This document shows positions 5,525-45,322 of a stretch of 53,737 nt of DNA, one piece after another. Below the pieces are notes generated by a model. It searched no databases, had not been told where the DNA came from, and saw only the letters and a list, made by a program, of their open reading frames with translations. The position numbers were made by a program, and so were the translations under genes. This DNA is from a virus: positions 1-53,737 of IMG/VR virus record IMGVR_UViG_3300045988_128558, one strand, 5' to 3'. Position 1 is the stretch's first letter; every line of letters starts with the position of its first letter.

Positions 5525-6052
5525 TTACTTGTCGTTGTTTCGGCGGAAGACGTGGGTGATAACGCCGTCCCCACGGGCAGAATGGATGTGTCCATACGGG
5601 GCTGTTCCCCACGGGTCGCCGGTATTCTCGTAGCCGGGCAGAGAGCGGATAAGCTCGCGCTCGTAATCGTCCAGGAACCACACCATGTCGTCCATTTCGT
5701 GCAGTGCCCACAGCACCGCGTTCTGGAAGGCGGGGACGTGCTGACCGGGGGTGAAGTGCGAGAAGTTATCGCTATCGTCCGGTGCGGTGCCCTCGACTCG
5801 CTCAACGCGGTTGTGAAGCGGGGTACCGTCGAACATTGCGGTGTCCAGTCCGTCGCAGAGGGTCAGCTCGCCGGTGTGCTTGGTCACCGTGTCGCCTGCG
5901 TAGGTTGTGACTTCGCAGGGTAGGTCGGTGAAGTCTTCGGTGAACCACGGGATGCGGAACTCAACCACCGCGTACTTCGGTTCGTTAGCCAACGCGAACC
6001 ACCGCCTTACACACCACGTCGCCGTAAGTGTCCAGCTCGAAGCCGAGGTCAT
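5525..6052 (-). CDS. hypothetical protein (175 aa as drawn; start uncertain)
   Basis: The ATG at 6052 overlaps the upstream gene by 68 nt. An in-frame TTG at 5992 would reduce the overlap to 8 nt. Confidence 0.6.
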   Translation of the reverse strand: MTSASSWTLTATWCVRRWFALANEPKYAVVEFRIPWFTEDFTDLPCEVTTYAGDTVTKHTGELTLCDGLDTAMFDGTPLHNRVERVEGTAPDDSDNFSHFTPGQHVPAFQNAVLWALHEMDDMVWFLDDYERELIRSLPGYENTGDPWGTAPYGHIHSARGDGVITHVFRRNNDK

Positions 6053-6917
6053 CAGCAGAGCCGAGCACCTTCACGTGGGAGTCAAGGGAGACAGTACCCC
6101 ACAGTCCGGTGTTAGCAAGCCCAATCATTAGCTCCGTTCGGGCTGCTTCGGGGATACGGTACACAGTCTCGCGGCGGTAAGGACGCGCGGGGGAGCCTGA
6201 ATATACTACTTCGGAGCGGTCAAGGAAGCCGTCGGTAACCCAGGTCTCGCGGGCGGAGCCTACAACTTCGGGGTCATAGAAGAAGCCGTCCATGTCCCAA
6301 TCCCAGAGCATCATCTGGAAGTGTGCTTCCATGTCCCAGGTCTCGGGGCGGAGCAACACTCGCACCTCGCGCCAGCGTCCGGGGTGTACCCAGACACAGG
6401 GCTTACCGTCTTCGGTGGAGCCGGGCACCAGCTCGAACAGGTCATGTACCTGTGACAGGTAATCCTCACTCAGCCCCGACCAGAAGTCGGGTACCGCGTC
6501 GGCGTTGCTGTCGGGTTCGTCGCTGATGGGCACCACGGGTAGGTACAAGCCCTTGCTCTGGAGCCATTCACGCGCCGTTTCGTCGGTCGAGTAATCGACA
6601 ATCAGGCTGTGGTAGAAGCTGGACAGAGCCTCGCAACAATCGTCGGTGCCGCCGATAAGCCGGGAACACAGCTCACGCCATAGTCGGTCTTCTTCCGCGT
6701 ACAATTCCTCGTCGGTGTGCCCGGCTTCTTCGTACTCTGCCAGGCGTTCGCCCATCTCTGAAATTTCGCCGTTCATATGGGAGCCAAGGAACAGCGCGTC
6801 GGGCGTAGAGTCCGTGCGCAACGTGAGATGGTCGTTCAACTCATACTCAAGCAACAGGGGGAACGGCTCGAAGCCAATACCGTATGAGGTGGTGGATATG
6901 GGGGGCATGGTGGACAT
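5985..6917 (-). CDS. hypothetical acidic protein (310 aa)
   Basis: ORF 5985..6932 trimmed to the ATG at 6917 (MSTMPPIST...), which is preceded by GAAAGGA 6 nt upstream. It is the first gene after tRNA-like element R1. Confidence 0.75.
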   Translation of the reverse strand: MSTMPPISTTSYGIGFEPFPLLLEYELNDHLTLRTDSTPDALFLGSHMNGEISEMGERLAEYEEAGHTDEELYAEEDRLWRELCSRLIGGTDDCCEALSSFYHSLIVDYSTDETAREWLQSKGLYLPVVPISDEPDSNADAVPDFWSGLSEDYLSQVHDLFELVPGSTEDGKPCVWVHPGRWREVRVLLRPETWDMEAHFQMMLWDWDMDGFFYDPEVVGSARETWVTDGFLDRSEVVYSGSPARPYRRETVYRIPEAARTELMIGLANTGLWGTVSLDSHVKVLGSADDLGFELDTYGDVVCKAVVRVG

Positions 6918-6975
6918 GGTACGTCCTTTCAACTAGGGGGTTACAGGGGAGCGCCGCTCACTACAGGGGCGCTAG

Positions 6976-7034
6976 TTCCCCGGCGCGGAGTCGAACCGTG
7001 CCTACGTGGTGAGTGTAGCCAACCGTGGCGGGGA
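6976..7034 (-). ncRNA. tRNA-like element R1 (59 nt, no canonical anticodon arm)
   Basis: Minus strand reads TCCCCG-[27 nt, with ACGGTTGG and a small hairpin CTAC/GTAG]-GCACGG TTCGACT CCGCGC CGGGGA A. That is a 6-bp acceptor-like stem plus a 6-bp T-like stem (one A.C mismatch), a T-loop heptamer TTCGACT and discriminator A. Confidence 0.55.
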
Positions 7035-7066
7035 TACCGGAAGGGATTATCGGTTATGTGCGGTGC

Positions 7067-7345
7067 TTACTTGGTTACGGCGGGGTGAATCACCTCCAAT
7101 CCGTCGGGGATAGGGCGCGGCTTCTTCGCCGGGGTAGAGGTAATCACCGGGCGGTCATCAACGAACTCAACCGAGTCACGGAAGACCCGCAGGGTGTACA
7201 GTTCTTCGCGGGCGTGCTGTAGTTCGCGCTGTTGCCAGATGTACAGGGCAAGCACACCGGCGGCTATTATCAACACCACCACCGAAGCAATGAAGATAAG
7301 GGCGGGGATAGTGTCCAAGGTGTATGTCCTTTCTAGCATTGGCAA
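7067..7345 (-). CDS. small membrane protein (92 aa; alternative ATG at 7339)
   Basis: TTG start in the ORF track, with an ATG two codons downstream. One strong hydrophobic helix: IPALIFIASVVVLIIAAGVLALYIW. Confidence 0.65.
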   Translation of the reverse strand: MPMLERTYTLDTIPALIFIASVVVLIIAAGVLALYIWQQRELQHAREELYTLRVFRDSVEFVDDRPVITSTPAKKPRPIPDGLEVIHPAVTK

Positions 7346-7803
7346 ATTTCTTCACCGTCCGTATTCATAATCTCGACGCATCGGTCAATCTCATCAAGGG
7401 GCGCGCCGAACAGGGCGGAAGTCCAGCTGTCACAGCGCAACGCGAAGGCGTCAAGTTTCAGCTTCAACCCGAACAGAGAGTCGCCTACATACGGTTCCGG
7501 GTCGGGTTCGTATTCCTGTGCGCCGCGGATAAAGAGCACGTCAATGTCAGGTGCCAGCTCTTCCGGCACCCAATCGCGCACATAGGATTCTTCGATCTCG
7601 TCGCCCGCTTCCTCTCGGTGCCAGGCGATAACCGCGTAGTACTTGGTCTTGTGCAGGTCGCCGTAGGTACCGTCGCGGTTCGGTAGACGGTACGTCGAGG
7701 ACAGCAGGCGCACCTTGGGTGCAATACCGGCACGCGCCAGAGCAGCTACAGCCTTTCGGAAGCCCTCGATACGGGACGGGGGGATAGTGGGGTAATCAGT
7801 CAT
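7333..7803 (-). CDS. hypothetical protein (156 aa)
   Basis: ORF preceded by GGAG 8 nt upstream of the ATG. Confidence 0.75.
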   Translation of the reverse strand: MTDYPTIPPSRIEGFRKAVAALARAGIAPKVRLLSSTYRLPNRDGTYGDLHKTKYYAVIAWHREEAGDEIEESYVRDWVPEELAPDIDVLFIRGAQEYEPDPEPYVGDSLFGLKLKLDAFALRCDSWTSALFGAPLDEIDRCVEIMNTDGEEICQC

Positions 7804-7824
7804 TAGTCAATCTCCAATCCTGCA

Positions 7825-8130
7825 TCACTGAACGCCTTGCGTACCGCGCCGTCGCCGGTCGATACCGGCGGTAAAGGTGTAGAGTTCACGCGCTTCGGAG
7901 CGGCGGAACTTTGTAGGGTTGGTAAGACCCAAGGTATCCAGCACACCCATAAAGCGGCGGTGCTGTTCAAAGGTGATACCGAAGGTACGGCGCGCCGTCC
8001 ATTTGTTATCGCGGACAAACACCACCGCGAGGTTGTGCAAGCGCCAGCGGTCTAGTGCCTTCTTGAGTTCGCCGCTCTCAGCGGCGGCGAGTATTGCCGC
8101 GCGGGTATCTGCATGAGGTACCTTGTACAT
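7825..8130 (-). CDS. hypothetical protein (101 aa)
   Basis: ATG at 8130 preceded by GGAAGGAAACC. It is the first gene after tRNA-like element R2. Confidence 0.7.
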   Translation of the reverse strand: MYKVPHADTRAAILAAAESGELKKALDRWRLHNLAVVFVRDNKWTARRTFGITFEQHRRFMGVLDTLGLTNPTKFRRSEARELYTFTAGIDRRRRGTQGVQ

Positions 8131-8180
8131 AGTGGTTTCCTTCCAGTAGGGGGTTACATAAGCGCCAGGGATAGCGCAAG

Positions 8181-8223
8181 CGCCCGCCGGTGGAGTCGAA
8201 CCACCGGGTATGACCGTCCGGGC
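8181..8223 (-). ncRNA. tRNA-like element R2 (43 nt)
   Basis: Minus strand reads GCCCG-[GACGGTCATAC]-CCGGTGG TTCGACT CCACCGG CGGGC G. The 5-bp and 7-bp stems total 12 bp, with T-loop TTCGACT. Confidence 0.55.
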
Positions 8224-8231
8224 TGTCCAGG

Positions 8232-8846
8232 TTACGCCTGGGCTACGGGGTATTCACGATAGATTTTCGCCGCGAAGAACACTTCATCTCGACCAGCGAA
8301 GCGGGGCTTGTGTTCGTCTGGGCACGCCCCGGTAATCTCAAGGTTCCATTCTTGGTTGGTACCGAACAGGTCGTTGAGCTTACCATGTACGCCCCATTCC
8401 AGAGCGCCCTTGAACTCAGAGCTGGACATCACGGCGCGGGTGAAGTCTTCCCAGAAGACCGCGGGTTCGCCATTTTCACGGTGAATGTCGTTTTCAGGGA
8501 ACACACCCACAAGTTCCGGGCGGTCGCCCGGTTCCATGTCTGAATCATTCCATACACCGAAGTTATCAAAGAACTCTTCAAAGGCGGCGGGCGGCTTCAC
8601 CTCGCTACCGTAGATGTTGTCGAAGTCGAAGTCATCAAACTCATTACCGGCGTTGCCATAGTAACCGAACTCACTGATAAGATTTTCCACCGCATCACCG
8701 CTGATGTCAGGGCGCGGTAGAAGTGACCATTCCGGGTAGTAGCACCAATCGGTGTACTGATGGGTACAGTCCACCACCAGGATTACGTCGAACTCAAGGC
8801 GGGGTACCAACCCTTCATCAGTGGGACGGTGCGTAAGGTTGAACAT
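8232..8846 (-). CDS. hypothetical acidic protein (204 aa)
   Basis: ORF preceded by GGAAGGAAAT. It is the first gene after element R3. Confidence 0.75.
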   Translation of the reverse strand: MFNLTHRPTDEGLVPRLEFDVILVVDCTHQYTDWCYYPEWSLLPRPDISGDAVENLISEFGYYGNAGNEFDDFDFDNIYGSEVKPPAAFEEFFDNFGVWNDSDMEPGDRPELVGVFPENDIHRENGEPAVFWEDFTRAVMSSSEFKGALEWGVHGKLNDLFGTNQEWNLEITGACPDEHKPRFAGRDEVFFAAKIYREYPVAQA

Positions 8847-8892
8847 GATAATTTCCTTCCAGTAGGGGGTTTGGTGCGCTAGGGTGCGCTAG

Positions 8893-8938
8893 TACCCGCC
8901 GCCGGAATTGCACCGGCGCAAAGCCACTACGGGCGGGC
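8893..8938 (-). ncRNA. tRNA-like element R3 (46 nt)
   Basis: Minus strand reads GCCCGCC-[CGTAGTGGCTTTGC]-GCCGG TGCAATT CCGGC GGCGGGT A. The 7-bp stem (G.U at 1:72) and 5-bp stem total 12 bp, with heptaloop TGCAATT. Confidence 0.5.
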
Positions 8939-8947
8939 TGTCCAGGG

Positions 8948-9478
8948 TTACGCCCAGACACCGGGGGTTAGGGGTTTACCGTCGAGCTTGAGCGGCTTTT
9001 CTGAGGTTAGGTGGAAGTGGAAGAAGTGGTTGCCGTCGCCGTCTACAGACCAATAGTGGCAACTCTCGCCAATGGTGGTTGATACGCGCTTACCGAAGTT
9101 GCGGCGGATAGAGTCCATGAGGTCGTTCACAACCGGGGCTACGGTACCGCCCTTTTTGAGGTCGGCAACAATATAATCGAAGAAGTCATCAGCGCGTGAC
9201 GGCTTAACACCTTCTTGCCAGCCCTCGAAACCGACGAAGTTCAGCATGTCTATTAGGTCAGCAGGAAGCCCAACACGTTTTGCGGTGTGCTTGCGTACGG
9301 TAACGCCCGCCTTGGTGGAGAATTGGTCGAAGACGCCAACACTAATCCATTCACCGCTTACATAAATCCGACGTATGAACTGAGTGGCGAATCGTAGCAC
9401 ACGCGGGTTAGGGTCGCGCTTGACCTGTTCACGGCTCAACTTGACGATTACGGGGTAGGTATAGGTATGGGTGGACAT
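8948..9478 (-). CDS. hypothetical protein (176 aa), paralog of 10073..10570
   Basis: Motifs shared with the 165-aa paralog: TYPV, DLIDM, VKPxRxDDFF, ADLxxGG, C(D/H)YW and HFxHFxL. Confidence 0.8.
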   Translation of the reverse strand: MSTHTYTYPVIVKLSREQVKRDPNPRVLRFATQFIRRIYVSGEWISVGVFDQFSTKAGVTVRKHTAKRVGLPADLIDMLNFVGFEGWQEGVKPSRADDFFDYIVADLKKGGTVAPVVNDLMDSIRRNFGKRVSTTIGESCHYWSVDGDGNHFFHFHLTSEKPLKLDGKPLTPGVWA

Positions 9479-9528
9479 AGGGGTTTCCTTCCAGTAGGGG
9501 GGTATGAATACGCTATGGATAGCGTGAG

Positions 9529-9575
9529 TGCCCCGGTGTGGAGTCGAACCACACCACCGCTAACCGTAGCGGGGC
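9529..9575 (-). ncRNA. tRNA-like element R4 (47 nt)
   Basis: Minus strand reads GCCCCG-[CTACGGTTAGCGGTG]-GTGTGG TTCGACT CCACAC CGGGGC A. The two 6-bp stems total 12 bp, and the linker can form GCTA-CGGT-TAGC. Confidence 0.55.
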
Positions 9576-9593
9576 TACCGGGTGTACCGGCGG

Positions 9594-9956
9594 TTAGTTA
9601 TGGGTGCGTACCGTAGCGGTAGCAAGTACGGGGTAACCGAAGCCGTGGACGAAACCGCGCTCGAAGATGACACAGTTGCCCGTGGGATTGACCTGTAGCG
9701 CGGTGAACTTTTCGATATTGCCCCCGGCTTCCTGAATCAAGGTATCAGGAACGACATTGTGAGGATTCTTGAAGTCATGGTTAGCCATACGTAGCAGGCG
9801 CTCTTCGGCAGCCACTAGTGCCCCCGATAGACCGGATCCACTGTGGATATTGATAGGCATACCCCACGTATGCCAGCCATAATCCTCACGGTACAGCCCG
9901 GCGGTTCCGTCGGTATCCACGATTAGGTACATAGGTATTTCACGGGTAGTAGACAT
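9594..9956 (-). CDS. hypothetical protein (120 aa)
   Basis: ORF 9594..10052 trimmed to the ATG at 9956 (MSTTREIPMY...), preceded by GAAAGGAAACC. The longer form would read through element R5. Confidence 0.7.
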   Translation of the reverse strand: MSTTREIPMYLIVDTDGTAGLYREDYGWHTWGMPINIHSGSGLSGALVAAEERLLRMANHDFKNPHNVVPDTLIQEAGGNIEKFTALQVNPTGNCVIFERGFVHGFGYPVLATATVRTHN

Positions 9957-10015
9957 AGGGGTTTCCTTTCGGTATGAGGTATGAGGTATGAATACGCTAC
10001 TAGGGATAGCGTGAG

Positions 10016-10064
10016 TGCCCGCCGTCGGAATTGCACCGGCGGTTAGACCCAAGCTAGGGCGGGC
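10016..10064 (-). ncRNA. tRNA-like element R5 (49 nt)
   Basis: Minus strand reads GCCCGCC-[CTAGCTTGGGTCTAACC]-GCCGG TGCAATT CCGAC GGCGGGC A. It has a perfect 7-bp acceptor-like stem, a 5-bp T-like stem with one C.A mismatch, and a D-arm-like TAG-CTTGGGT-CTA. Confidence 0.5.
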
Positions 10065-10072
10065 TGTCCTGG

Positions 10073-10570
10073 CTAAGCAGGACGGGGGTAAGTGGTGTAG
10101 TGCCTAATCTTTTCGCCTTTGAGCTCCAAGGGTTCCGGCGATTCTAGGGTGAAGTGTGCAAAGTGTACGCCGTTCTCAGCCTTGACCCAATAGTCACAGC
10201 CTTCACTAACGTTAGTGCTCACGTCTTCACCGAAGAGGTCGCGTAGCGCGCAGTCGAAGTACAGACCTGTGTCAAGGGTAGAGCCGCCTTCTACAAGGTC
10301 GGCAAACGCCCAACCAAAGAAGTCATCTTCACGACCCGGCTTTACGTCTACAATTTCGCCGTTTTCGTCAAACTCGACCATGTCGATAAGGTCGGTATAA
10401 TCCGCTTCTTCGAGAGCTTCACGGTGCGACATGTCAGGGTTGAACGCAAACAAAGTAGTCCAGTCGTAATGACGGTTGTTCACGTAGAGCTCTGCAACGC
10501 CCCCCGTGTATTTCGGGTCACGGTAAGCAACGACGGTTACGGGGTAGGTAAAGGTCTTAGAAGTGGACAT
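10073..10570 (-). CDS. hypothetical protein (165 aa), paralog of 8948..9478; first gene of the leftward operon
   Basis: See 8948..9478. The ATG at 10570 is preceded by GAAAGGA. Confidence 0.8.
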   Translation of the reverse strand: MSTSKTFTYPVTVVAYRDPKYTGGVAELYVNNRHYDWTTLFAFNPDMSHREALEEADYTDLIDMVEFDENGEIVDVKPGREDDFFGWAFADLVEGGSTLDTGLYFDCALRDLFGEDVSTNVSEGCDYWVKAENGVHFAHFTLESPEPLELKGEKIRHYTTYPRPA

Positions 10571-10620
10571 AATAAGTCCTTTCGATAGGGGGTTAGAAAG
10601 CTCGACAGGGTGTCGATACG

Positions 10621-10678
10621 TTCCCTAATGGAGGCTCGAACTCCATACCCGCTACGCGGGCGCTCCAACAGCTAGGGA
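10621..10678 (-). ncRNA. tRNA-like element R6 (58 nt) in the 5' leader of the leftward operon
   Basis: Minus strand reads TCCCTAG-[26 nt, with GTTGGAG and hairpin CCCGC-GTA-GCGGG]-TGGAG TTCGAGC CTCCA TTAGGGA A. The 7-bp and 5-bp stems total 12 bp, and TTCGAGC is a canonical T-loop sequence. Confidence 0.55.
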
Positions 10679-10749
10679 TACTTTTACCTTTTCCCATTAC
10701 ACTATTCCGTTATCAAATATCAAGTTCGGCTATGTGCCTTATGTCATTC

Positions 10750-10778
10750 AGTATATCAGGTCTTAGACAGCTTGTCAA
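10750..10778 (-). promoter_or_regulatory. leftward promoter P-a: TTGACA-17 nt-TATACT
   Basis: The minus strand reads TTGACAagctgtctaagacctgaTATACT. The -35 box is the plus-strand tgtcaa at 10773-10778 and the -10 box is agtata at 10750-10755. Confidence 0.75.
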
Positions 10779-10827
10779 GTCCTTCTATCTGAAATTATTT
10801 CGACCGGGATTTTTCCCGTTCGTGATT

Positions 10828-10856
10828 AGTATATCAACTCTTTATCAGTTTGTCAA
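10828..10856 (-). promoter_or_regulatory. leftward promoter P-b: TTGACA-17 nt-TATACT
   Basis: The -35 box is the plus-strand tgtcaa at 10851-10856 and the -10 box is agtata at 10828-10833. It has the same architecture as P-a. Confidence 0.7.
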
Positions 10857-11030
10857 ATCGTTTGTTTTTAGTCTCTGAGTCTCCACGCAAACGAACACGT
10901 GCGTACACCCCGCCCCGTGCGTAACGGTTTTTCGGCTTTGGGTATAACAACTTTCCCGCGCTAGGCGGTACTACCAGGCGACCTAGGGGCTAAAAGCCCC
11001 AGCGACAAACTTTATTTAGTTGATATGAAT

Positions 11031-11059
11031 ATCGTAGCAAGCTCTAGACAGCTTGTCAA
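11031..11059 (-). promoter_or_regulatory. leftward promoter P-c: TTGACA-17 nt-TACGAT
   Basis: The -35 box lies at 11054-11059 and the -10 box at 11031-11036. It shares the block tctagacagcttgtcaagtc with P-a. Confidence 0.55.
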
Positions 11060-11108
11060 GTCTTAGCTAGATATTTTCTCAACCGCCCGTTTCAGCGGCT
11101 ATGTGAAT

Positions 11109-11138
11109 ATCATGCCAGAGCTTTTAACACTTTGTCAA
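11109..11138 (-). promoter_or_regulatory. possible leftward promoter P-d: TTGACA-18 nt-CATGAT (weak -10)
   Basis: The -35 box lies at 11133-11138. It shares cggctatgtg and aatatc blocks with P-a and P-c. Confidence 0.35.
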
Positions 11139-11186
11139 ACTATTTTAGTGTGAAGTGCATCACTTTTGTTAGCTCTTTTACATAAG

Positions 11187-11486
11187 GCGCGCATACGCGC
11201 GCGTAGTGTAACACGTTGCTATGGTGGTGTGCAAGTGGTAGTAGTGTGGTGTTGTACACATTGTGTAGTTTGGTGTGTACGTGTATGTGAGTGTGTGCAT
11301 GTGTATGTATGTGTGTATGTGTGCATGTATGTGTATGTGTGTATGTGTGCGTGTAAGTGTATGTGTGTATGAGTGAGTAAGCGCGCATTAGTGTGTGTAT
11401 ATGCGTATGCGTGTGTATGCGTGTATGTAAGCGTGTGAGAGCGCGCGTTAGTGCGTACACGTGCGTTTACGTGCGTTTACGTGCGA
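11187..11486. repeat. GT-rich, strand-skewed alternating purine-pyrimidine low-complexity tract ending in 10-bp tandem repeats (gtgcgtttac)
   Basis: Read directly. There is a perfect Pu/Py alternation of 64 bp at 11291-11354 and another of about 38 bp at 11391-11428. There are gcgcgc blocks, and 11451-11486 reads gtgcgtacac gtgcgtttac gtgcgtttac gtgcga. Confidence 0.9.
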
Positions 11487-11629
11487 GGGGGCGGGGGGTA
11501 TCCCCTTAGCAGCAACTTTTCGCTCCGCCGGGTTCTGTCGCTCGACCTCTGAACCGTAGAAAAAGTACGAGGGCGAACATGTGTTCTACGTGAGCTGGAA
11601 CACCAGAAGATATGTTCGGCACACAAAGA

Positions 11630-11747: not shown

Positions 11748-12221
11748 GTGCCCAAAATGGGAGGAGCAGGAAACAACCGAAGCCGCCGCGGAAAGTTCGA
11801 GGTGGCAAAGGCAACCCCCGTTGTCATCGACCCCGCAGAGCAGCCGAGCCTGGAGCAGATCTCACCTAACGTTGAGTGGCTACCCCCGACCATTGAGTTC
11901 TGGGAGTCGCTTCCTGAGCACCCCACGTTCCAGACAATGACCAGAGCGCAGTGGTATTCTGCAGCGCTGTCCCTCGCCGTGCCGTACAACGAGGCCCTGA
12001 CGAAGCTCCTCAACGGGCAGCCCTCGACGCGCGCCTCCGAGGTCTACACCTCCCACGCGAAGGACTACGGCCTGACCCCGAAGGCTATGCTCGGTATGAA
12101 CATCGAACTGCTGACCGCTGCCGAGATGCAGCAGCGCGTGGATGCTTCGCGACCGCAACTGCCGCCAGCGCTGGGTAGCCCCTCCCGCACCTACGACGGA
12201 CTACGACTGGAGGGTAAGTAA
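11748..12221 (+). CDS. terS: terminase small subunit (157 aa)
   Basis: Sits immediately upstream of terL and is translationally coupled to it (TAATG). It has a basic N-terminus and the typical size. The call rests on position. Confidence 0.6.
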   Translation: MPKMGGAGNNRSRRGKFEVAKATPVVIDPAEQPSLEQISPNVEWLPPTIEFWESLPEHPTFQTMTRAQWYSAALSLAVPYNEALTKLLNGQPSTRASEVYTSHAKDYGLTPKAMLGMNIELLTAAEMQQRVDASRPQLPPALGSPSRTYDGLRLEGK

Positions 12222-15010
12222 TGGACATCTTCGGCAACGCACCTGTGGCCGCTGGCTTCAAGCCGGAGTACCCCGGCGAGTTGCCCACCCTGGGCTTCGA
12301 GGCGATTCACTGGATGACTCAGTTTCTCGCCCGCCCGACGGTCACCCGGTACGAACCGTTCTCCCCGACGCGCGAGCAGGCAGAGTTCCTACTCAAGTGG
12401 TACCAGCTGGACCCCATCACTGGGCAGCGCAAGTACCGCCGAGGCGTGATTCAGCGCCCAAAGGGATGGGGCAAGGCTGAGAGCCTGGATAACGTGGTGC
12501 CCACCCCGAACGGCTATAAGCGGTTCGGGGATCTGCGTGTGGGCGATTACGTGTATGGCGCCGACGGTAAGCCTACGATGGTTGTTCAGGTACACCCCAT
12601 CATTGAAGACTTCGGATATACCGTGACTGCTTCTGATGGGTCTGAGGGTGTCTTCCACGAGAATCATACGTTTGTGGTGCAGGAGTTTACGGGCTCTGGT
12701 CGGAAGCTGGTTGAGCGGTCTGTTGGCGATATGGCTGCTCGCGGGATGATTCACCCCCGCGCGCTAACCAAGGGTCGCACCAAGGCGTCTAAGCCGGGTG
12801 TATCCCGGTTCGCTTTGCAGGAGCCGCCCGCCTTGTCGAACCCCGGCAAGGAGCTACCCGTAGACCCGTATGTTCTCGGTGTATGGCTTGGCGATGGTGA
12901 CTCGGATAGTGGCCGGGTGACTTTTAACGCTGATGACCAGGAGCATATGACTACCCGCATGGGGGTGACGGAGCTACGCCTGCAGTGGAATGACGCGCAT
13001 ACGGCAGCGCGCGCCACTGTCCCCGGACTGATCTCTAAACTACGTTCCCTCGGGGTGCTCGGCAACAAGCATATTCCTGCGGGGTATATCCGCGCATCTA
13101 GGACTGACCGCTTGGAGCTGCTGCGCGGCCTCATGGACTCTGACGGACACGTAGAAACTTCGGGTGTTCGGGCGGAGTATTGCACCACGTCCGAGCGTCT
13201 GGCAGAAGGGGTTAGGAGTCTCCTGTTTTCCCTGGGCTACCGCCCTACGGTACTTGTCGGCGTGGCCAAGCTGTATGGCCGTGAGGTTTCTAAGAAGTAC
13301 CGGATTCGTTTCCGTCCTCGGACGGAGGATCCTGTGGTTAGCTTGCCCCGTAAGGTTTCTCGTATCAAGCCCTTGGTTAGGGCTCAGCAGCCGAGGGTTA
13401 TCGCTGATATTCGCCGGACGGAGCAGAAGGTGCTGATGCGGTGCATCACGGTTGAGGCTCCCGATGGTCAGTACATCACCGGCAGGAGCCATTGGGTGAC
13501 GCACAACAGCCCGTTCCTGTCCGCGATCGCTGCGTTCGAGGCGCTGGGCAATTGCCGGTTCGCTGGCTGGGACGCTAACGGGCGACCTGTCGGCGCGCCC
13601 TGGAACGCAGAGCGTAAGGTAGAGATCTCACTGCTGGCAGTCTCGGAAGACCAGACCCGCAACGCCTTCGAGCCGATGAAGGAGATGATGGGAACAGACC
13701 ACCTGGCGGCGTACTACCCCGGCTTGGAGGTCATGGAGACACGTATCTTGCTCCCCTTCAACGGCATGATTAAACCCCGTACCGCGAGCGCGGCCAGCTT
13801 CGAGGGTACCCCGCAGGTGTTCACGATTGCTGACCAGACCGAGACGTGGCTACCGAACAACGGCGGTGTGGAACTAGGCGCGGTGGCGAAGCGAAACATG
13901 TCCAAAACTGACGGCACGCTGCTTGAGGCTCCTAACGCCTTCGTACCCGGCGCGGGCTCCTTCGCGGAGCTGACGTGGGAGGCATACCAGAAGGCTATCG
14001 CTGGCGACTCGTTCCGAGACAGCATCTTCTACGACACGAGGGACTGGGGCGAGCCAGACCTGGATGATCCGAACAGCGTCATTGCTGGTCTTGAGCACGC
14101 CTACGGTGACTCCCTTAAGTCTGCGCACGGGTGCCGCATCCACACTCCCCCCTGCGGCGTGGACGGTTCCCCCTACCCCGGTGGCTGGGTGAACATCAAC
14201 GGTGTACTCGATGATGTGTTCGACCCGGCGACGACGCTCTCGGACGCGGCTAGGTATTTCGGCAACAAGCCTCACGCCGCTGCAGATGCCTTCCTGGACA
14301 TGAGCCAGCTTGCCGCCGCGACGTTCTACGACCTAGAGGCGGCAGGCATCCAGCCTCCGTCCGCGCGCGACAAGATTGTGCTCGGCTTTGATGGTTCGTG
14401 GGGACGTAGCAAAGGCATCACGGACGCGACCGCGATCGTGGCGATGCGCGTCTCGGACGGTCTATCCTGGGCGGTGCGCATCTGGGAACAGCCGGACTCT
14501 GCGGAGGGTCGTGACTGGGAGCCTCCGCGCCAGGAGATTGACGCAGTAATGCGCCAGACCATTCAATCCTTCGATGTCGTGGACGCGCTCTTCGACCCGT
14601 CCGGCTGGGAGACAGCGGCGGCGGAGTGGGAGAATCTGATTTCCACCCGGCGAGTGGAGCGCCAACAGCTCAGCACCATAACGAAGGCACCTCCCCGCTA
14701 TGGTTCGATGATGTGGCGCGGTAACCAGCTCTCCGCGGTGGCCGCGGCAACCCAAGCCCTACGCATCGCGATCATCGAGAAGGAAGTAATGATTACCGGC
14801 TCCTCCGACCTGAGCCGCCACATCTTGAACGCGGTGTACCGCGAGACACGCGCGGGTAAAATTCTGTATAAGGAATCCCCGAGTAGCGCCCGCAAGATTG
14901 ACGCGGCGTATGCCCTGATGCTGGCGCACCAGTCACGACTGCGTGTGCTGGCTAAGGGCACGGGAGCAGACCAGACGCGCGGTGTCATGCAGCCGATGCG
15001 TATTAGATAG
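12221..15010 (+). CDS. terL: terminase large subunit precursor (929 aa) interrupted by an intein in the Walker A / P-loop
   Basis: The N-extein ends ...RPKGWGK and the C-extein starts SPFLSAIAAFEAL, which restores GWGKS. The size after splicing is about 585 aa. The gene lies between terS and the portal gene. Confidence 0.85.
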   Translation: MDIFGNAPVAAGFKPEYPGELPTLGFEAIHWMTQFLARPTVTRYEPFSPTREQAEFLLKWYQLDPITGQRKYRRGVIQRPKGWGKAESLDNVVPTPNGYKRFGDLRVGDYVYGADGKPTMVVQVHPIIEDFGYTVTASDGSEGVFHENHTFVVQEFTGSGRKLVERSVGDMAARGMIHPRALTKGRTKASKPGVSRFALQEPPALSNPGKELPVDPYVLGVWLGDGDSDSGRVTFNADDQEHMTTRMGVTELRLQWNDAHTAARATVPGLISKLRSLGVLGNKHIPAGYIRASRTDRLELLRGLMDSDGHVETSGVRAEYCTTSERLAEGVRSLLFSLGYRPTVLVGVAKLYGREVSKKYRIRFRPRTEDPVVSLPRKVSRIKPLVRAQQPRVIADIRRTEQKVLMRCITVEAPDGQYITGRSHWVTHNSPFLSAIAAFEALGNCRFAGWDANGRPVGAPWNAERKVEISLLAVSEDQTRNAFEPMKEMMGTDHLAAYYPGLEVMETRILLPFNGMIKPRTASAASFEGTPQVFTIADQTETWLPNNGGVELGAVAKRNMSKTDGTLLEAPNAFVPGAGSFAELTWEAYQKAIAGDSFRDSIFYDTRDWGEPDLDDPNSVIAGLEHAYGDSLKSAHGCRIHTPPCGVDGSPYPGGWVNINGVLDDVFDPATTLSDAARYFGNKPHAAADAFLDMSQLAAATFYDLEAAGIQPPSARDKIVLGFDGSWGRSKGITDATAIVAMRVSDGLSWAVRIWEQPDSAEGRDWEPPRQEIDAVMRQTIQSFDVVDALFDPSGWETAAAEWENLISTRRVERQQLSTITKAPPRYGSMMWRGNQLSAVAAATQALRIAIIEKEVMITGSSDLSRHILNAVYRETRAGKILYKESPSSARKIDAAYALMLAHQSRLRVLAKGTGADQTRGVMQPMRIR
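12476..13507 (+). mobile_element. intein with LAGLIDADG homing-endonuclease domain (about 344 aa) inside terL
   Basis: Block A-like (A)ESLDNVVPTPNGYKRFGDLRVGD, two LAGLIDADG motifs (LGVWLGDGDSDSG and LLRGLMDSDGHV), block F/G RCITVE...HWVTHN, then +1 Ser. The N-terminal junction is ambiguous: Ala at 12476 or Ser at 12482. Confidence 0.8.
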
Positions 15011-44103: not shown

Positions 44104-44550
44104 TTAGATAGTAAGGTTTTCGTAGGCCGAAGCTACTGCCTCTGCCTTGATTTCTGCCGGGCGCTTGTCGCTCTCCGGGGCGAGAGCAAGCTTCCCGGTG
44201 GTCTTGGTGACGAACTCGCTTGCGGGAGTGTCTTCCAGCTTGGAGCCGAGCTTCTTCTCAAGGTTGGTGATGGCTTCCAGCTTCACGATCGTCTGGCTCA
44301 ACCCGTCGGTGCTCACTCCGCCTTCTTCGAGAGCGCGGAGGAAGCCTTCGGGGTCCTCGATGGTTCGTCGAGAAGCGTTGCGCACAACCTTGAGTCCTGG
44401 GAACTGTACTCCGTGGTCATACGCCTGGGTGAGCACGTGCTCCTCCACGTCGGTGAGCCATTTCTTAATCGCCTTGGCGTTCAGGGCGACCATAGCAAGC
44501 TGCTCGACGGTCAGCTCGCCTACTGGTGCGAGGACCGGGGCGTTAGTCAT
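44104..44550 (-). CDS. hypothetical protein (148 aa), resembles the C-terminal part of DUF2800-type nucleases
   Basis: Overlaps the upstream nuclease gene by 8 nt (ATGACTAA). It contains the segment GLKVVRNASRRTIEDPEGF. Confidence 0.6.
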   Translation of the reverse strand: MTNAPVLAPVGELTVEQLAMVALNAKAIKKWLTDVEEHVLTQAYDHGVQFPGLKVVRNASRRTIEDPEGFLRALEEGGVSTDGLSQTIVKLEAITNLEKKLGSKLEDTPASEFVTKTTGKLALAPESDKRPAEIKAEAVASAYENLTI

Positions 44551-45322
44551 CGGTCAGCATCCCTTCTTGTAGGAGGAATCCCCACATGGCGTTTGCTCGG
44601 GCTGAGCACACCGCCTTGGCGGGGCACCACTGGCAAATCTCATCGCGCGGACAGAACGAGCCAGTGGAAGAATTGATCTCTTGTATAGCGGGTAGCACCT
44701 TCGTGTCTACCCAGCTACGCAGTTCGTCCGCAGAGAGGCGAAAATCGCTGTGGCTATGACGGCGCGGCTGGAAGATGTGAAGCTCGACATCCTGGATGTC
44801 GTACACCAGCTCCCAGAAGCGCAGGGCGCCTGCTCCGTAGAGGAGCAACTGCGGATTCTCTGTGGCGGTCACCGGGATACCAGCACCATACTTGTAGTCG
44901 ATAACGTACAAGGTGGTGCCGCTAATGACGATTGCGTCGGCGGTTCCGAAGCACTGCTCGGTCACGAAGACTCGCTGTTCAATCATGACGAGTGCGTTCG
45001 GGTCGTCTCGGAGAATGTCGAGGATGAACTCGACCTGCCCGGAGGCGAAATTCTCCATCTCGGAGATTGCGGGGCGACCCAGCAGCTTCTCGGCCTCTTC
45101 TGCGAGTCGCTTGCGCTCTGCCTTGAACTCCGCGGCAGAGACTTTACCGAGCGCCTGCTTCATTAGGTTCTCCAGCACAGCGTGGGCTAGAGTTCCCTCC
45201 TCAGCCGCCAGGCCCGCTGTCTGCTCGGGTACCTTAGCCGACTCGATGAGGTCGAAGGACTTCGTGCAGTTGAGCCAGCGGTGGCTGGAGGAGGGGGACA
45301 GCTTGGCGTGTACGTCAGGCAT
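44543..45322 (-). CDS. PD-(D/E)XK (Cas4/RecB-like, DUF2800-type) exonuclease (259 aa)
   Basis: N-terminal LSPSSSHRWLNC, core VIDYKYG, and C-terminal Cys cluster CPRDEICQWCPAKAVC. Confidence 0.7.
   Translation of the reverse strand: MPDVHAKLSPSSSHRWLNCTKSFDLIESAKVPEQTAGLAAEEGTLAHAVLENLMKQALGKVSAAEFKAERKRLAEEAEKLLGRPAISEMENFASGQVEFILDILRDDPNALVMIEQRVFVTEQCFGTADAIVISGTTLYVIDYKYGAGIPVTATENPQLLLYGAGALRFWELVYDIQDVELHIFQPRRHSHSDFRLSADELRSWVDTKVLPAIQEINSSTGSFCPRDEICQWCPAKAVCSARANAMWGFLLQEGMLTDD

What the first reader, a model, noticed from the sequence alone, without database searches (positions are those of the whole stretch)
6933..10680. Six anticodon-less tRNA-like structures punctuate the early leftward operon
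Six intergenic or leader regions on the transcribed (minus) strand each contain a 43-59 nt element built like the top half of a tRNA. The elements are R1 6976-7034, R2 8181-8223, R3 8893-8938, R4 9529-9575, R5 10016-10064 and R6 10621-10678. Each has a 5' acceptor-like strand, a GG-containing linker of 11-27 nt, a T-arm-like hairpin with a 7-nt loop, a 3' acceptor strand and one unpaired discriminator-like base. The loop is TTCGACT in three elements, TTCGAGC in one and TGCAATT in two. In every copy the acceptor-like and T-like stems sum to 12 bp (6+6, 5+7, 7+5, 6+6, 7+5, 7+5), which is the length of the coaxial acceptor/T helix of real tRNAs. The stem sequences differ between copies but stay complementary. 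Acceptor pairs are GCCCCG/CGGGGC, TCCCCG/CGGGGA, GCCCGCC/GGCGGGT and TCCCTAG/TTAGGGA. T-stem pairs are GTGTGG/CCACAC, CCGGTGG/CCACCGG, GCCGG/CCGGC and TGGAG/CTCCA. This covariation argues for selection on structure rather than simple repeat identity. None has a convincing 5-bp/7-nt anticodon arm and none encodes CCA. All linkers keep a GG (ACGGTT, TTGGG, GTGGC, GTTGGAG), as the D-loop G18G19 elbow contact would require. Acceptor/T minihelices are known minimal substrates of RNase P, RNase Z and the CCA-adding enzyme. One reading is therefore mitochondrial-style tRNA punctuation that cuts the polycistronic early transcript into monocistronic mRNAs. Other readings are decoys for tRNA-acceptor-targeting host defences, or recombination boundaries for gene cassettes. 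I know of no described phage system matching this arrangement.
Basis: partly seen in the sequence, partly recalled or inferred. Interest (0 to 1): 0.85.

Follow-up and report, generated by a model that had tools for sequence, protein, structure and literature searches.

The report
tRNA-like punctuation of phage early operon
An uncultured actinobacteria-type phage and about 60 related metagenomic contigs carry two to six miniature, anticodon-less tRNA look-alikes between their first genes; these probably let the host's tRNA-trimming enzymes cut the long early message into protected pieces, an arrangement I could not find described for any phage.

Summary
All six elements sit at the stated coordinates on the minus (coding) strand. 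Each has an acceptor-like stem plus a T-arm summing to 12 bp, a 7-nt T-loop (T54, C56, A58, closing G-C) and a GG-containing linker. ARAGORN and Rfam find no tRNA.

Minor corrections: covariation supports 6+6 rather than 7+5 for R6. R1 and R5 each have one T-stem mismatch. R1 and R6 carry a short hairpin where an anticodon arm would be.

Elements of this kind occur only on the early-operon strand of about 60 related contigs in two clades (72% terminase identity). A covariance model gave 116 hits in 1.16 Mb of related loci, none elsewhere. Stems show compensatory changes.

New findings:
- The base after the discriminator is C in 82 of 82 modules.
- A hairpin, often holding the upstream stop codon, ends 1 nt before the element.
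- A second hairpin starts 3 nt after the discriminator.
- Four tandem sigma-70-type promoters lie upstream, with no terminators.

Best reading (about 0.5, inferred): host RNase P, possibly with RNase Z, cuts at the elements, leaving hairpin-capped mRNAs. Decoy RNAs, uncleaved insulators and cassette-recombination joints remain possible. I rate it a new variant of a known kind; plant mitochondrial t-elements are the closest analogue.

The parts
10750..11138 (-). Four tandem sigma-70-type promoters that drive the leftward operon. Each has TTGACA, a 17-18 nt spacer and a TG-extended -10 box. First hexamers start at 11138, 11059, 10856 and 10778.
   Evidence: Promoter scan: 10-11 of 12 matches each. 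No terminator-like site on the minus strand in 6800-11600.
10621..10678 (-). R6, the leader tRNA-like element. Acceptor 6 bp, D-like arm GCU/AGC with loop GUUGG, a 6-bp hairpin with GUA triloop at the anticodon-arm position, T arm 6 bp with loop UUCGAGC, discriminator A, then C.
   Evidence: Across 13 orthologues the acceptor and T stems are 100% paired, and 7 pairs change on both sides.
10602..10616 (-). H2 of the leader module (TCGACA-CCC-TGTCGA). It starts 4 nt after the R6 discriminator.
   Evidence: the outer pair covaries UA/UG/CG.
10073..10570 (-). Early gene 1 (165 aa), a paralogue of gene 3. No family match.
10066..10083 (-). H1 before R5 (GTCCTG-CTTAGC-CAGGAC). The stop codon TAG of gene 1 lies in the loop. 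The hairpin ends 1 nt before R5 +1.
10016..10064 (-). R5 tRNA-like element. Acceptor 7 bp GCCCGCC/GGCGGGC, T arm 5 bp with one C.A mismatch, loop UGCAAUU, discriminator A, then C.
   Evidence: E = 2.5e-10. Orthologues have a perfect CCGGC strand.
9994..10012 (-). H2 after R5 (ACGCTAT-CCCTA-GTAGCGT). It starts 3 nt after the discriminator.
9594..9956 (-). Early gene 2 (120 aa). No family match.
9577..9591 (-). H1 before R4 (GCCGG-TACAC-CCGGT). It ends 1 nt before R4 +1.
9529..9575 (-). R4 tRNA-like element. Acceptor 6 bp GCCCCG/CGGGGC, D-like GCUA-CGGU-UAGC, T arm 6 bp GUGUGG/CCACAC, loop UUCGACU, discriminator A, then C.
   Evidence: E = 3.5e-9.
9510..9525 (-). H2 after R4 (ACGCTA-TCCA-TAGCGT). 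It starts 3 nt after the discriminator.
8948..9478 (-). Early gene 3 (176 aa), a paralogue of gene 1. Only five relatives were found among 5.8 billion proteins.
8940..8959 (-). H1 before R3 (GTCTGGG-CGTAAC-CCTGGAC). The stop codon TAA of gene 3 lies in the loop. The hairpin ends 1 nt before R3 +1.
8893..8938 (-). R3 tRNA-like element. Acceptor 7 bp GCCCGCC/GGCGGGU, T arm 5 bp GCCGG/CCGGC, loop UGCAAUU, discriminator A, then C.
   Evidence: E = 1.6e-11.
8876..8889 (-). H2 after R3 (GCGC-ACCCTA-GCGC). It starts 3 nt after the discriminator.
8232..8846 (-). Early gene 4 (204 aa). It is absent from relatives L013 and L018, where a hybrid element remains.
8227..8241 (-). H1 before R2 (CCAGG-CGTAA-CCTGG). 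The stop codon TAA of gene 4 lies in the loop. In relatives an unrelated stem (GTAGTGA/TCACTAC, TACAGG/CCTGTA) holds the same place.
8181..8223 (-). R2 tRNA-like element. Acceptor 5 bp GCCCG/CGGGC, T arm 7 bp CCGGUGG/CCACCGG, loop UUCGACU, discriminator G, then C.
   Evidence: E = 5.9e-5, although this class was not in the model's training set; orthologues have CCGUCGG/CCGACGG.
8162..8177 (-). H2 after R2 (GCGCTA-TCCC-TGGCGC). It starts 3 nt after the discriminator.
7067..8130 (-). Early genes 5-7 (101, 156 and about 92 aa). They are tightly packed, with no element between them.
7036..7062 (-). Conserved motif CACCGCACATAACCGATAA plus a weak 4-bp hairpin (ACCG/CGGU) that ends 1 nt before R1. 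The motif recurs in front of an element in the second clade.
6976..7034 (-). R1 tRNA-like element. Acceptor 6 bp UCCCCG/CGGGGA, D-like CC-ACGGUU-GG, a 4-bp hairpin with 9-nt loop at the anticodon-arm position (absent from most orthologues), T arm 6 bp with one A.C mismatch, loop UUCGACU, discriminator A, then C.
   Evidence: (E = 1.2e-5).
6950..6973 (-). H2 after R1 (AGCGCC...GGCGCU).
5985..6917 (-). Gene 8 (310 aa), the first gene of the long run of tightly packed genes that has no further elements.

Best explanation
What is shown. The six elements are RNA structures inside the primary early transcript. That transcript is made from four tandem host-type promoters with no terminators. Each element copies the part of a tRNA that end-maturation enzymes recognise: the 12-bp acceptor/T coaxial helix, a T-loop, a GG-bearing D-loop substitute that could form the elbow, and a purine discriminator followed by C. 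The anticodon arm is missing or reduced to a stub.

What is inferred.
1. Host RNase P cuts at -1/+1 of each element.
2. The upstream mRNA then ends in hairpin H1 plus one unpaired base, usually A. Such an end should resist 3' exonucleases.
3. Either RNase Z also cuts after the discriminator, or the element stays attached.
   - If RNase Z cuts, a 43-59 nt mini-tRNA is released, and the downstream mRNA starts with 3 unpaired nt followed by hairpin H2.
   - If not, the element remains as a paired 5' cap.
   - Either way the 5' end is shielded from 5'-end-dependent RNase E and RNase J.
4. The net effect is that the promoter-proximal, fast-evolving early genes become separate, hairpin-capped mRNAs. 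Functionally this is what RNase III sites do in the T7 early region and what t-elements do in plant mitochondria.

The structure, its conservation, strand, position and flank geometry are shown. Every cleavage step is inferred.
For: 1. Fold and T-loop signature (T54, C56, A58, closing G53-C61) are present in all six elements and in 55 distinct cores from relatives.

2. Compensatory evolution.
- In a sequence-only alignment of 13 leader modules, the acceptor and T stems are 100% paired. Seven pairs change on both sides. 0 of 500 shuffles reach the observed score, and slid controls give 0-1.
- RNAalifold independently recovers a four-arm fold and does the same in the second clade.
- Across 28 cores from both clades, 98% of cells are paired and 80 cells show double changes, against 26 in shuffles. 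This set was picked by a pairing-based finder, so the paired percentage is partly circular.

3. RNA on this strand.
- One-sided changes all give G.U.
- Stems of 51 unique cores hold 38 G.U against 4 A.C (biased, because the finder counts G.U as a pair).
- All 116 model hits in 1.16 Mb of relatives lie on the early-operon strand upstream of the terminase gene. None lies elsewhere.

4. Only what RNase P, RNase Z and the CCA-adding enzyme read is kept. The anticodon-arm position holds nothing, or a hairpin of 4-6 bp with a 3-9 nt loop, and varies between orthologues.

5. Position 74 is C in 82 of 82 modules. The discriminator is A in 64 and G in 18. C74 is one partner of the RCCA contact with RNase P RNA (PMC11143913).

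6. Flank geometry.
- H1 ends exactly 1 nt before +1 in 37 of 53 unique flanks, against 12.8% of random positions.
- H2 starts 3 nt after the discriminator in 47 of 69, against 7%.
- H1 stems differ completely between modules yet still pair.
- Structure this close upstream resembles natural dimeric tRNA precursors with spacers under 5 nt, which RNase P processes (PMC11143913).

7. Transcription context: four strong promoters and no terminators.

8. Precedent: plant mitochondrial t-elements define mRNA ends through RNase P and RNase Z and are CCA-tailed (PMC1920247, PMC11658184). RNase P also cuts phage M3 and C4 RNAs and operon mRNAs (PMC11143913).
Against: - There are no RNA-end data of any kind. 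The host is unknown; it is inferred to be an actinobacterium only from 27-43% protein matches.
- The -1 base is A in 72 of 82 modules, whereas, from my own knowledge, bacterial RNase P favours U at -1.
- H1 leaves only 1 unpaired leader base, while the RNase P protein contacts -8 to -3 of single-stranded leaders (PMC11143913).
- From my own knowledge, C74 may disfavour RNase Z, so 3' cleavage is doubtful.
- Two window copies have a mismatched T stem.
- Most downstream genes need no such signal: no elements occur after R1.
- Within each clade the genomes are close (terminase 96-99% identical), so the independent compensatory events are few.
- The phage encodes no recognisable tRNA-processing enzyme that would tie it to this pathway.
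Confidence: 0.5

Rival explanations
1. Decoy or sponge RNAs. The elements are excised, perhaps CCA-tailed, and accumulate early as abundant mini-tRNAs. These titrate host factors that act on the tRNA acceptor end or elbow. Candidates, from my own knowledge, are abortive-infection nucleotidyltransferase toxins of the AbiE/MenT type and CapRel-type pyrophosphokinases. mRNA punctuation would then be a side effect.
For: - Two to six copies per genome lie directly behind four strong promoters, so they are made first and in quantity.
- Exactly the acceptor/T/elbow part is kept, and the anticodon part is dispensable.
- The purine discriminator and C74 are conserved.
- Neighbouring genes are orphan, fast-changing early genes of the sort that often counter defence.
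- t-elements show that such RNAs can be CCA-tailed (PMC11658184).
Against: - No defence target is identified.
- Stems differ widely between copies, so a toxin specific for one tRNA species would not be mimicked.
- The precise H1 and H2 geometry and the stop codon in the H1 loop concern the flanking mRNAs, which a pure decoy does not need.
- Excision and stability are unproven.
Confidence: 0.15
2. Uncleaved structural insulators and stabilisers. H1, the element and H2 are simply very stable folds. They isolate each cistron's ribosome-binding site from neighbouring sequence, block exonucleases or Rho loading in the 100-150 nt C-rich untranslated gaps, and are never cut by tRNA enzymes. The tRNA likeness would reflect ancestry from a tRNA gene or reuse of a robust fold.
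For: - The modules are densely structured.
- H1 abuts the element, leaving little single-stranded leader for RNase P.
- Constant spacing of 46-59 nt to the next start codon, and a conserved motif CCCCCTACTGGAAGGAAA before three of the starts in the window.
Against: - Any hairpin would serve as an insulator.
- This reading does not explain conservation of the T-loop identity positions, the closing G-C, the GG of the linker, the fixed 12-bp sum in three different splits (7+5, 6+6, 5+7), the purine discriminator or the invariant C74.
Confidence: 0.15
3. Recombination joints for gene cassettes. The repeated modules mainly serve as patches of homology between which early genes are gained, lost and swapped, like the PeSL cassettes of T4-type phages.
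For: - L013 and L018 lack the 204-205 aa gene. In its place they carry a hybrid: the 5' part of an R3-type element joined to the H1 and R2-type element through the shared 9-mer CCCGTAGTG.
- The same 204-aa gene follows an R3-type element in the window but an R1-like element in L002, L021, L024 and L026.
- Gene content between elements varies among genomes whose terminases are 96-99% identical.
- PeSL precedent: PMC2839356, PMC4122927.
Against: - Homology-driven exchange favours sequence identity, yet stems diverge by compensatory changes that preserve an RNA fold on one strand.
- G.U pairs and strict strand bias are RNA-level features.
- The modules carry no promoter, unlike PeSLs.
- Shuffling is therefore probably a consequence, not the selected function.
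Confidence: 0.1

Closest known systems
Plant mitochondrial t-elements (tRNA-like processing signals; Forner et al. 2007, PMC1920247; PMC11658184)
   Same: - Non-functional tRNA-like folds embedded in mRNA precursors next to coding regions.
- A conserved T-arm motif: GGTTCRANYCC matches R1, R2 and R4 exactly.
- No encoded CCA.
- The proposed role is to direct RNase P and RNase Z and so define mRNA ends.
   Different: - t-elements are scattered organellar relics homologous to tRNA genes, with near-cloverleaf folds. Their cleavage and CCA tailing are shown by experiment.
- Here the elements are in a phage, arrayed regularly at consecutive gene junctions behind the early promoters.
- They lack the anticodon arm and have fixed flanking hairpins and an invariant C74.
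- No RNA data exist.
Mitochondrial tRNA punctuation of polycistronic transcripts
   Same: tRNA-shaped units lie between cistrons of one long transcript, so tRNA end-processing would release the mRNAs.
   Different: The mitochondrial units are working tRNAs. These cannot decode: there is no anticodon loop, and ARAGORN and Rfam are negative.
RNase III processing sites of the T7/T3 early region (my own knowledge)
   Same: Several tandem strong host-RNAP promoters are followed by a processing structure in the leader and between successive early genes. The products are hairpin-ended, stable early mRNAs.
   Different: T7 sites are long irregular double-stranded hairpins read by RNase III. Here the structures are tRNA-like and would be read by RNase P and perhaps RNase Z.
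Other non-tRNA substrates of bacterial RNase P: phage P1/P7 C4 RNA precursor, phage phi80 M3 RNA, tmRNA, operon mRNAs (PMC11143913)
   Same: A tRNA-like acceptor/T mimic makes a non-tRNA transcript, including phage transcripts, a substrate.
   Different: Those are single sites that mature one RNA, not a repeated conserved module punctuating an operon. No sequence or Rfam similarity.
Bacterial and mycobacteriophage YrlA (Y RNA-like) tRNA mimics (PMC4201824) and the tRNA-like domain of tmRNA
   Same: Acceptor stem, T arm and D-loop mimic are kept, while the anticodon arm is replaced.
   Different: YrlA and tmRNA replace the anticodon arm with a long functional helix (Ro binding, or the mRNA-like domain) and are stand-alone genes. 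Here the position is empty or holds a stub, and the elements are intercistronic. No Rfam hit to either family.
Repeated intergenic modules of other phages: SAS/ESAS of Cluster K mycobacteriophages (PMC3203893) and PeSL cassettes of T4-type phages (PMC2839356)
   Same: Conserved motifs and inverted repeats lie just upstream of many start codons in non-structural genes. They are associated with variable genes, and with module shuffling in the PeSL case.
   Different: ESAS are 17-bp inverted repeats of conserved sequence and unknown role. PeSLs contain a promoter and a terminator. Neither is tRNA-like. The modules here have no promoter or terminator.

Membership tests
Canonical tRNA (Rfam RF00005; ARAGORN) | Cloverleaf with a 5-bp anticodon stem and 7-nt anticodon loop, detectable by tRNA finders | tested here: not met
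   ARAGORN finds 0 genes in the window and in 38 related loci. There is no RF00005 hit at gathering score, nor at E<=10 in 6500-11500.
Canonical tRNA (Rfam RF00005; ARAGORN) | Acceptor plus T stems stack to 12 bp; 7-nt T-loop with T54, C56, A58 and closing G53-C61; purine-rich discriminator position | tested here: met
   Splits are 7+5 in 51 modules, 6+6 in 21 and 5+7 in 10. Loops are TTCGAYT, TTCGAGC or TGCAAWT.
Canonical tRNA (Rfam RF00005; ARAGORN) | 3' CCA, encoded or added, and aminoacylation | not testable with these tools
   CCA is not encoded; only C74 is present, in 82 of 82 modules. Addition and charging need RNA data.
Plant mitochondrial t-elements | tRNA-like fold carrying the T-arm motif GGTTCRANYCC within an mRNA precursor | tested here: met
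   R1, R2 and R4 match GGTTCGACTCC exactly. R6 (AGTTCGAGCCT) and R3/R5 (GGTGCAATTCC) are variants. All are intercistronic or in the leader.
Plant mitochondrial t-elements | mRNA 5' or 3' ends coincide with the element borders; cleavage by RNase P or RNase Z | not testable with these tools
   No transcript-end data are available.
Plant mitochondrial t-elements | Recognisable homology to a tRNA gene; organellar genome | tested here: not met
   Phage context. No parent tRNA was identified, and no tRNA gene occurs in any related locus.
RNase III-punctuated early operon (T7 type) | Tandem strong host promoters followed by processing structures in the leader and between early genes | tested here: met
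   Four promoters. Elements lie in the leader and at five gene junctions.
RNase III-punctuated early operon (T7 type) | The processing structure is a long double-stranded hairpin of about 20 bp with an internal loop | tested here: not met
   The structures are branched and tRNA-like, with stems of 5-7 bp.
tmRNA tRNA-like domain / YrlA | Match to the family covariance model; long helix in place of the anticodon arm | tested here: not met
   No Rfam match. The anticodon-arm position is empty or holds a 4-6 bp stub.
PeSL regulatory cassettes of T4-type phages | Each cassette has an early sigma-70 promoter plus a stem-loop terminator | tested here: not met
   No promoter-like or terminator-like site lies inside the modules on the coding strand.
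PeSL regulatory cassettes of T4-type phages | Cassettes flank variable genes and mediate their gain, loss and shuffling | tested here: inconclusive
   One hybrid element marks a gene deletion, and different element types precede the same gene. There are too few events to show a general rule.

The most novel reading that the evidence does not exclude
The phage makes a family of excised, CCA-tailed, anticodon-less mini-tRNAs with two jobs. First, they punctuate and hairpin-cap the early mRNAs. Second, the released mini-tRNAs act as early, abundant decoys for host tRNA-acceptor-end or elbow-binding factors, such as defence toxins or tRNA-maturation and surveillance enzymes. That would be a non-coding anti-defence strategy not yet described in phages.
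Probability: 0.12. Interest if true: 0.9.

Novelty: new variant of a known kind. Interest (0 to 1): 0.72.

Why it matters
- If the elements are cut as proposed, this would be the first phage operon found to use tRNA mimicry instead of RNase III hairpins to process its early message. Organelle-style tRNA punctuation would then have arisen independently in a virus of bacteria.
- It would provide a compact, natural, portable module (hairpin, 45-nt mini-tRNA, hairpin) for splitting and stabilising polycistronic RNAs.
- It gives a set of minimal natural substrates for studying how RNase P, RNase Z and the CCA-adding enzyme read the acceptor/T/elbow unit. The set has three different acceptor/T splits and an invariant C74.
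- It flags a class of structured non-coding RNA that tRNA finders and Rfam both miss. This class may be hiding in other uncultured phages.

Tried and rejected
- Megablast and blastn of the region against 50,697 phage records: no match. The phage has no sequenced cultured relative.
- Terminase scan of 185,579 reference genomes: no prophage, so no host name.
- Rfam at permissive threshold gave only noise. This included a weak plus-strand hit of R5 to Plastid-ycf2 (E = 0.15), which I discount.
- Exact-motif scan of viral contigs with CCCCCTACTGGAAGGAAA: three of the seven stretches were chance hits (L004, L006, L007) and were dropped.
- MAFFT of all 48 cores aligned on the linker GG and put the 5' acceptor strands out of register (A6). 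I rebuilt the alignment from 28 cores of similar length (A7).
- The covariance model misses the long-linker leader class (R6), so that class was analysed by orthologue alignment instead.
- Glutamicibacter phage Montesquieu, the best primase match, has no such elements.
- Pfam and PHROGs on the early genes and the replication arm: no tRNA-processing, CCA-adding or RNA-repair enzyme.
- Contig ends that fall at elements (for example L009) were considered as possible RNA ends. I rejected this as assembly breaks at repeats.
- Six literature searches aimed at a phage counterpart found no description of tRNA-like punctuation in a phage; two more were run to locate the SAS/ESAS and PeSL papers.
- Rejected readings: attP sites (six copies, no integrase context, RNA-level covariation); decayed tRNA genes (no intact tRNA at any orthologous site, compensatory changes); recently mobile repeats (sequences differ while the fold is kept).

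Full report
**1. What is in the window**

The window is 53.7 kb with 60% G+C. On the minus strand four sigma-70-type promoters lie in an A+T-rich stretch. Each has TTGACA, a 17-18 nt spacer and a TG-extended -10 box; the first hexamers start at 11138, 11059, 10856 and 10778. No terminator-like site follows on that strand.

Downstream lie eight small genes with no Pfam or PHROGs match. After them comes a long run of tightly packed minus-strand genes. This run appears to continue round the circularly permuted map into a replication module: family A DNA polymerase, VapE-type primase and SNF2 helicase.

The plus strand carries terminase, portal, capsid and tail genes. Terminase, capsid and primase match only distantly (27-43% identity). 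Capsid hits are almost all to actinobacteriophages, and the top terminase and primase hits are too, although hits to those two extend to phages of other phyla. There is no DNA match to any deposited phage. I conclude this is an uncultured actinophage-like virus; the host is inferred, not shown.

**2. The observation**

Five of the six (all but R5) fold, as their minimum-free-energy structure, into an acceptor-like stem enclosing a T-arm with a 7-nt loop; for R5 the minimum-free-energy fold keeps only the acceptor stem, and its T-arm is read from the sequence and from orthologues.

| Element | Coordinates | Acceptor + T | T-loop | Discriminator | Note |
|---|---|---|---|---|---|
| R6 | 10621-10678 | 6+6 | TTCGAGC | A | leader; 6-bp hairpin with GUA triloop at the anticodon-arm position |
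| R5 | 10016-10064 | 7+5 | TGCAATT | A | one C.A mismatch in the T stem |
| R4 | 9529-9575 | 6+6 | TTCGACT | A | mini D-arm |
| R3 | 8893-8938 | 7+5 | TGCAATT | A | |
| R2 | 8181-8223 | 5+7 | TTCGACT | G | |
| R1 | 6976-7034 | 6+6 | TTCGACT | A | one A.C mismatch in the T stem; 4-bp hairpin with 9-nt loop at the anticodon-arm position |

- The loop-closing pair is always G-C.
- No tRNA gene is called by ARAGORN.
- No Rfam family reaches threshold, and the tRNA and tmRNA models do not hit even at E<=10.
- The R1 extra hairpin is missing from most R1 orthologues.

**3. Not chance**

- A strict descriptor gives 8 hits in the window against a mean of 1.6 in dinucleotide shuffles. On its own that is modest.
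- A covariance model (R1) was built from 28 family members. It finds R3, R5, R4, R1 and R2 at E = 1.6e-11 to 5.9e-5, with the next hit at E = 2.3. The R2 class was not in the training set.
- The six elements fill six successive non-coding gaps of one operon (the leader, four gene junctions in a row, then the junction after genes 5-7), all on one strand.

**4. Relatives**

Protein and motif look-ups recovered about 60 related metagenomic contigs. Many, to judge by their sample identifiers (my own knowledge, not checked), come from human-associated samples. They form two clades, with terminase 96-99% and about 72% identical to the window's.

Both clades carry the same kind of element between their first genes: six in clade 1 genomes and two to four in clade 2. 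In clade 2 the stem sequences are entirely different, for example:
- GCGTACA...CCGGG-tgcaatt-CCCGG-TGTACGC-a
- GCCCGGT-cttggtagacac...TAGGG-ttcgatt-CTCTA-GCCGGGC-a

The model gave 66 hits in 623 kb and, in an independent set of loci, 50 hits in 534 kb. Every hit is on the early-operon strand upstream of the terminase gene. None is on the other strand or in structural genes. No true tRNA is present at any of these sites, so the elements are not recent wrecks of tRNA genes.

**5. Covariation**

The cleanest test uses a sequence-only MAFFT alignment of 13 orthologous leader modules.
- Flanks, loops and linker are almost invariant. The substitutions concentrate in the stems and are compensatory.
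- T stem: UGGAG/CUCCA, CGAGG/CCUCG, UGAGG/CCUCA.
- Acceptor: UCCCUAG, UCCCGUG, CCCAUAG, each with its matching 3' strand.
- Acceptor and T stems are 100% paired. Seven pairs change on both sides. 0 of 500 shuffles reach the observed score, and slid controls give 0-1 such pairs.
- RNAalifold, given nothing but the alignment, returns acceptor, D-like arm, central hairpin, T arm and a downstream hairpin.
- It returns the equivalent fold for the clade 2 first-junction modules, which follow a short first gene. There the 4-bp D-like stem itself covaries: AAGG/CCUU against GAGA/UCUC.

The R2 and R1 classes vary little, but their double changes are compensatory: CCGGUGG/CCACCGG to CCGUCGG/CCGACGG, and GCACGG/CCGUGC to GCAUGG/CCAUGC.

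Across 28 cores from both clades, 98% of cells pair, and 80 cells carry double changes against 26 in shuffles. That set was chosen by a pairing-based finder, so its paired percentage is partly circular.

One-sided changes all produce G.U. Stems hold 38 G.U against 4 A.C. This points to RNA of this strand rather than DNA.

Caveat: within each clade the genomes are close, so the number of independent events is small.

**6. New anatomy**

Measurements below come from 82 distinct modules.
- The base after the discriminator is C in 82 of 82. The next base is U or G.
- The discriminator is A in 64 and G in 18. The -1 base is A in 72.
- A hairpin, H1, ends exactly 1 nt before +1 in 37 of 53 distinct non-leader flanks, against 12.8% of random positions. 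In about half of cases its loop holds a stop triplet, and in four of the five gene-following modules of the window that triplet is the upstream gene's stop codon.
- H1 stems are unrelated in sequence between modules, yet all pair: GUAGUGA/UCACUAC, CCAGG/CCUGG, UACAGG/CCUGUA, GUCCUG/CAGGAC, and GCUGGA/UCCAGC against GCUGGG/CCCAGC.
- A second hairpin, H2, starts 3 nt after the discriminator in 47 of 69 distinct flanks, against 7% of random positions.
- The next start codon follows 46-59 nt after the element.

The unit is therefore: H1, one unpaired base, the tRNA-like element, C plus two more bases, H2, Shine-Dalgarno sequence, ATG.

What varies freely is the anticodon-arm position. What is kept is exactly the surface read by RNase P, RNase Z and the CCA-adding enzyme.

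**7. Mechanism**

Shown:
- A conserved, strand-specific RNA fold with tRNA acceptor/T/elbow features.
- It lies inside an early transcript that has strong promoters and no terminators.
- Flanking hairpins keep a fixed distance from the element borders.

Inferred:
- RNase P cuts at -1/+1.
- The upstream mRNA is left with H1 plus one base at its 3' end.
- The downstream RNA either keeps the element as a base-paired 5' end, or RNase Z cuts after the discriminator and it begins 3 nt before H2.
- Both outcomes give ends that known exonucleases and 5'-end-dependent RNases handle poorly (my own knowledge).

Points that fit: natural dimeric tRNA precursors with spacers under 5 nt are RNase P substrates, and C74 takes part in the RCCA contact with RNase P RNA (PMC11143913).

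Points that do not fit well:
- A at -1 rather than U.
- A nearly fully structured leader, although the RNase P protein binds -8 to -3.
- Possible inhibition of RNase Z by C74 (my own knowledge).
- No RNA data at all.

I put this reading at about 0.5.

**8. Rivals**

- **Decoy mini-tRNAs for acceptor-end-targeting host factors (0.15).** This is compatible with the early, high-copy expression and the retained surface. It has no identified target and does not need the flank geometry.
- **Uncleaved insulators (0.15).** This does not explain the conserved T-loop identities, the 12-bp rule or C74.
- **Cassette recombination joints (0.1).** There are real traces. L013 and L018 lack the 204-205 aa gene and keep a hybrid element joined through a shared 9-mer. 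The same gene follows different element types in different genomes. However, compensatory change, G.U pairs and strand bias show that selection acts on the RNA.

These readings are not mutually exclusive.

**9. Comparison and novelty**

- The closest known things by mechanism are plant mitochondrial t-elements (PMC1920247, PMC11658184) and mitochondrial tRNA punctuation.
- The closest by genome logic are the RNase III sites of the T7 early region.
- The closest by fold are the tRNA-like domains of YrlA (PMC4201824) and tmRNA.

The elements fail the defining tests of canonical tRNA, of the Rfam tRNA-like families, of RNase III sites and of PeSL cassettes. They meet the structural test for t-elements but not the ancestry or organelle tests.

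Six literature searches aimed at a phage counterpart found none. I therefore rate this a new variant of a known kind. The structural finding is solid; the function is still to be shown.

Noticed in passing
window 12476-13507 (+), inside the terminase large subunit ORF 12221-15010: The terminase carries a 344-aa insertion right after the Walker A GWGK. The insertion holds two LAGLIDADG-like motifs and ends in HN followed by Ser. This looks like an intein with a homing endonuclease. Related phages with 97-99% identical terminases lack it.
   Followed up: partly
window 11275-11500: A stretch of about 230 bp of imperfect short repeats, with almost no G on the minus strand (CACACATACAC..., ACGTAAACGCACGT...), lies between the small terminase gene and the early promoters. 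Clade 2 phages have a similar purine-poor block in the same place (L037, L041). It might be a packaging, end or origin region. It produced spurious microRNA hits in Rfam.
   Followed up: no
window 7040-7062 (-), and L036, L037, L041, L043, L044, L048, L050: The motif CACCGCACAT(A/T)..CACCGATAA just upstream of R1 is conserved between the two clades, although the rest of the early region is not alignable. It contains -10-like hexamers (CATAAT, GATAAT), so an internal promoter or a protein-binding site is possible.
   Followed up: no
window 8136-8153, 8852-8869, 9484-9501 (-): An identical 18-mer, CCCCCTACTGGAAGGAAA, lies immediately upstream of three start codons. Related forms (CCCCCTAGTTGAAAGGA, CCCCCTATCGAAAGGA) precede two more. 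This resembles the start-associated sequences of Cluster K mycobacteriophages, but the sequence is different.
   Followed up: partly
window 7825-10570 compared with the rest of the minus-strand genes: The element-flanked early genes have lower third-position G+C (0.56-0.66) than the other minus-strand genes (mostly 0.70-0.82). Their content also varies between near-identical genomes. This suggests recent acquisition or fast turnover.
   Followed up: no
L013 2324-2402 and L018 1661 onward: A hybrid module. The 5' part of an R3-type element (GCCCGCCCGTAGTG) is fused, through the shared 9-mer CCCGTAGTG, to the H1 and R2-type element. The 204-205 aa gene between them is deleted.
   Followed up: partly
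window 44104-45322 (-): A DUF2800 / PD-(D/E)XK nuclease is split into two overlapping ORFs, of 259 aa (profile positions 1-240) and 148 aa (positions 251-368). This may be a frameshift, programmed or degenerative, or a genuine split gene.
   Followed up: no
window 10860-11030 (-): The 170 nt between promoters 2 and 3 are G+C-rich and include the hairpin GGGGC-TTTTA-GCCCC. Transcripts from the two upstream promoters would carry this extra structured leader.
   Followed up: no
L075 and L080 (contig BNJT01001839.1, 98,213 bp): One metagenomic contig holds two terminase copies about 49 kb apart. It is a head-to-tail dimer of a clade 2 genome, consistent with a circularly permuted or concatemeric assembly.
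   Followed up: no
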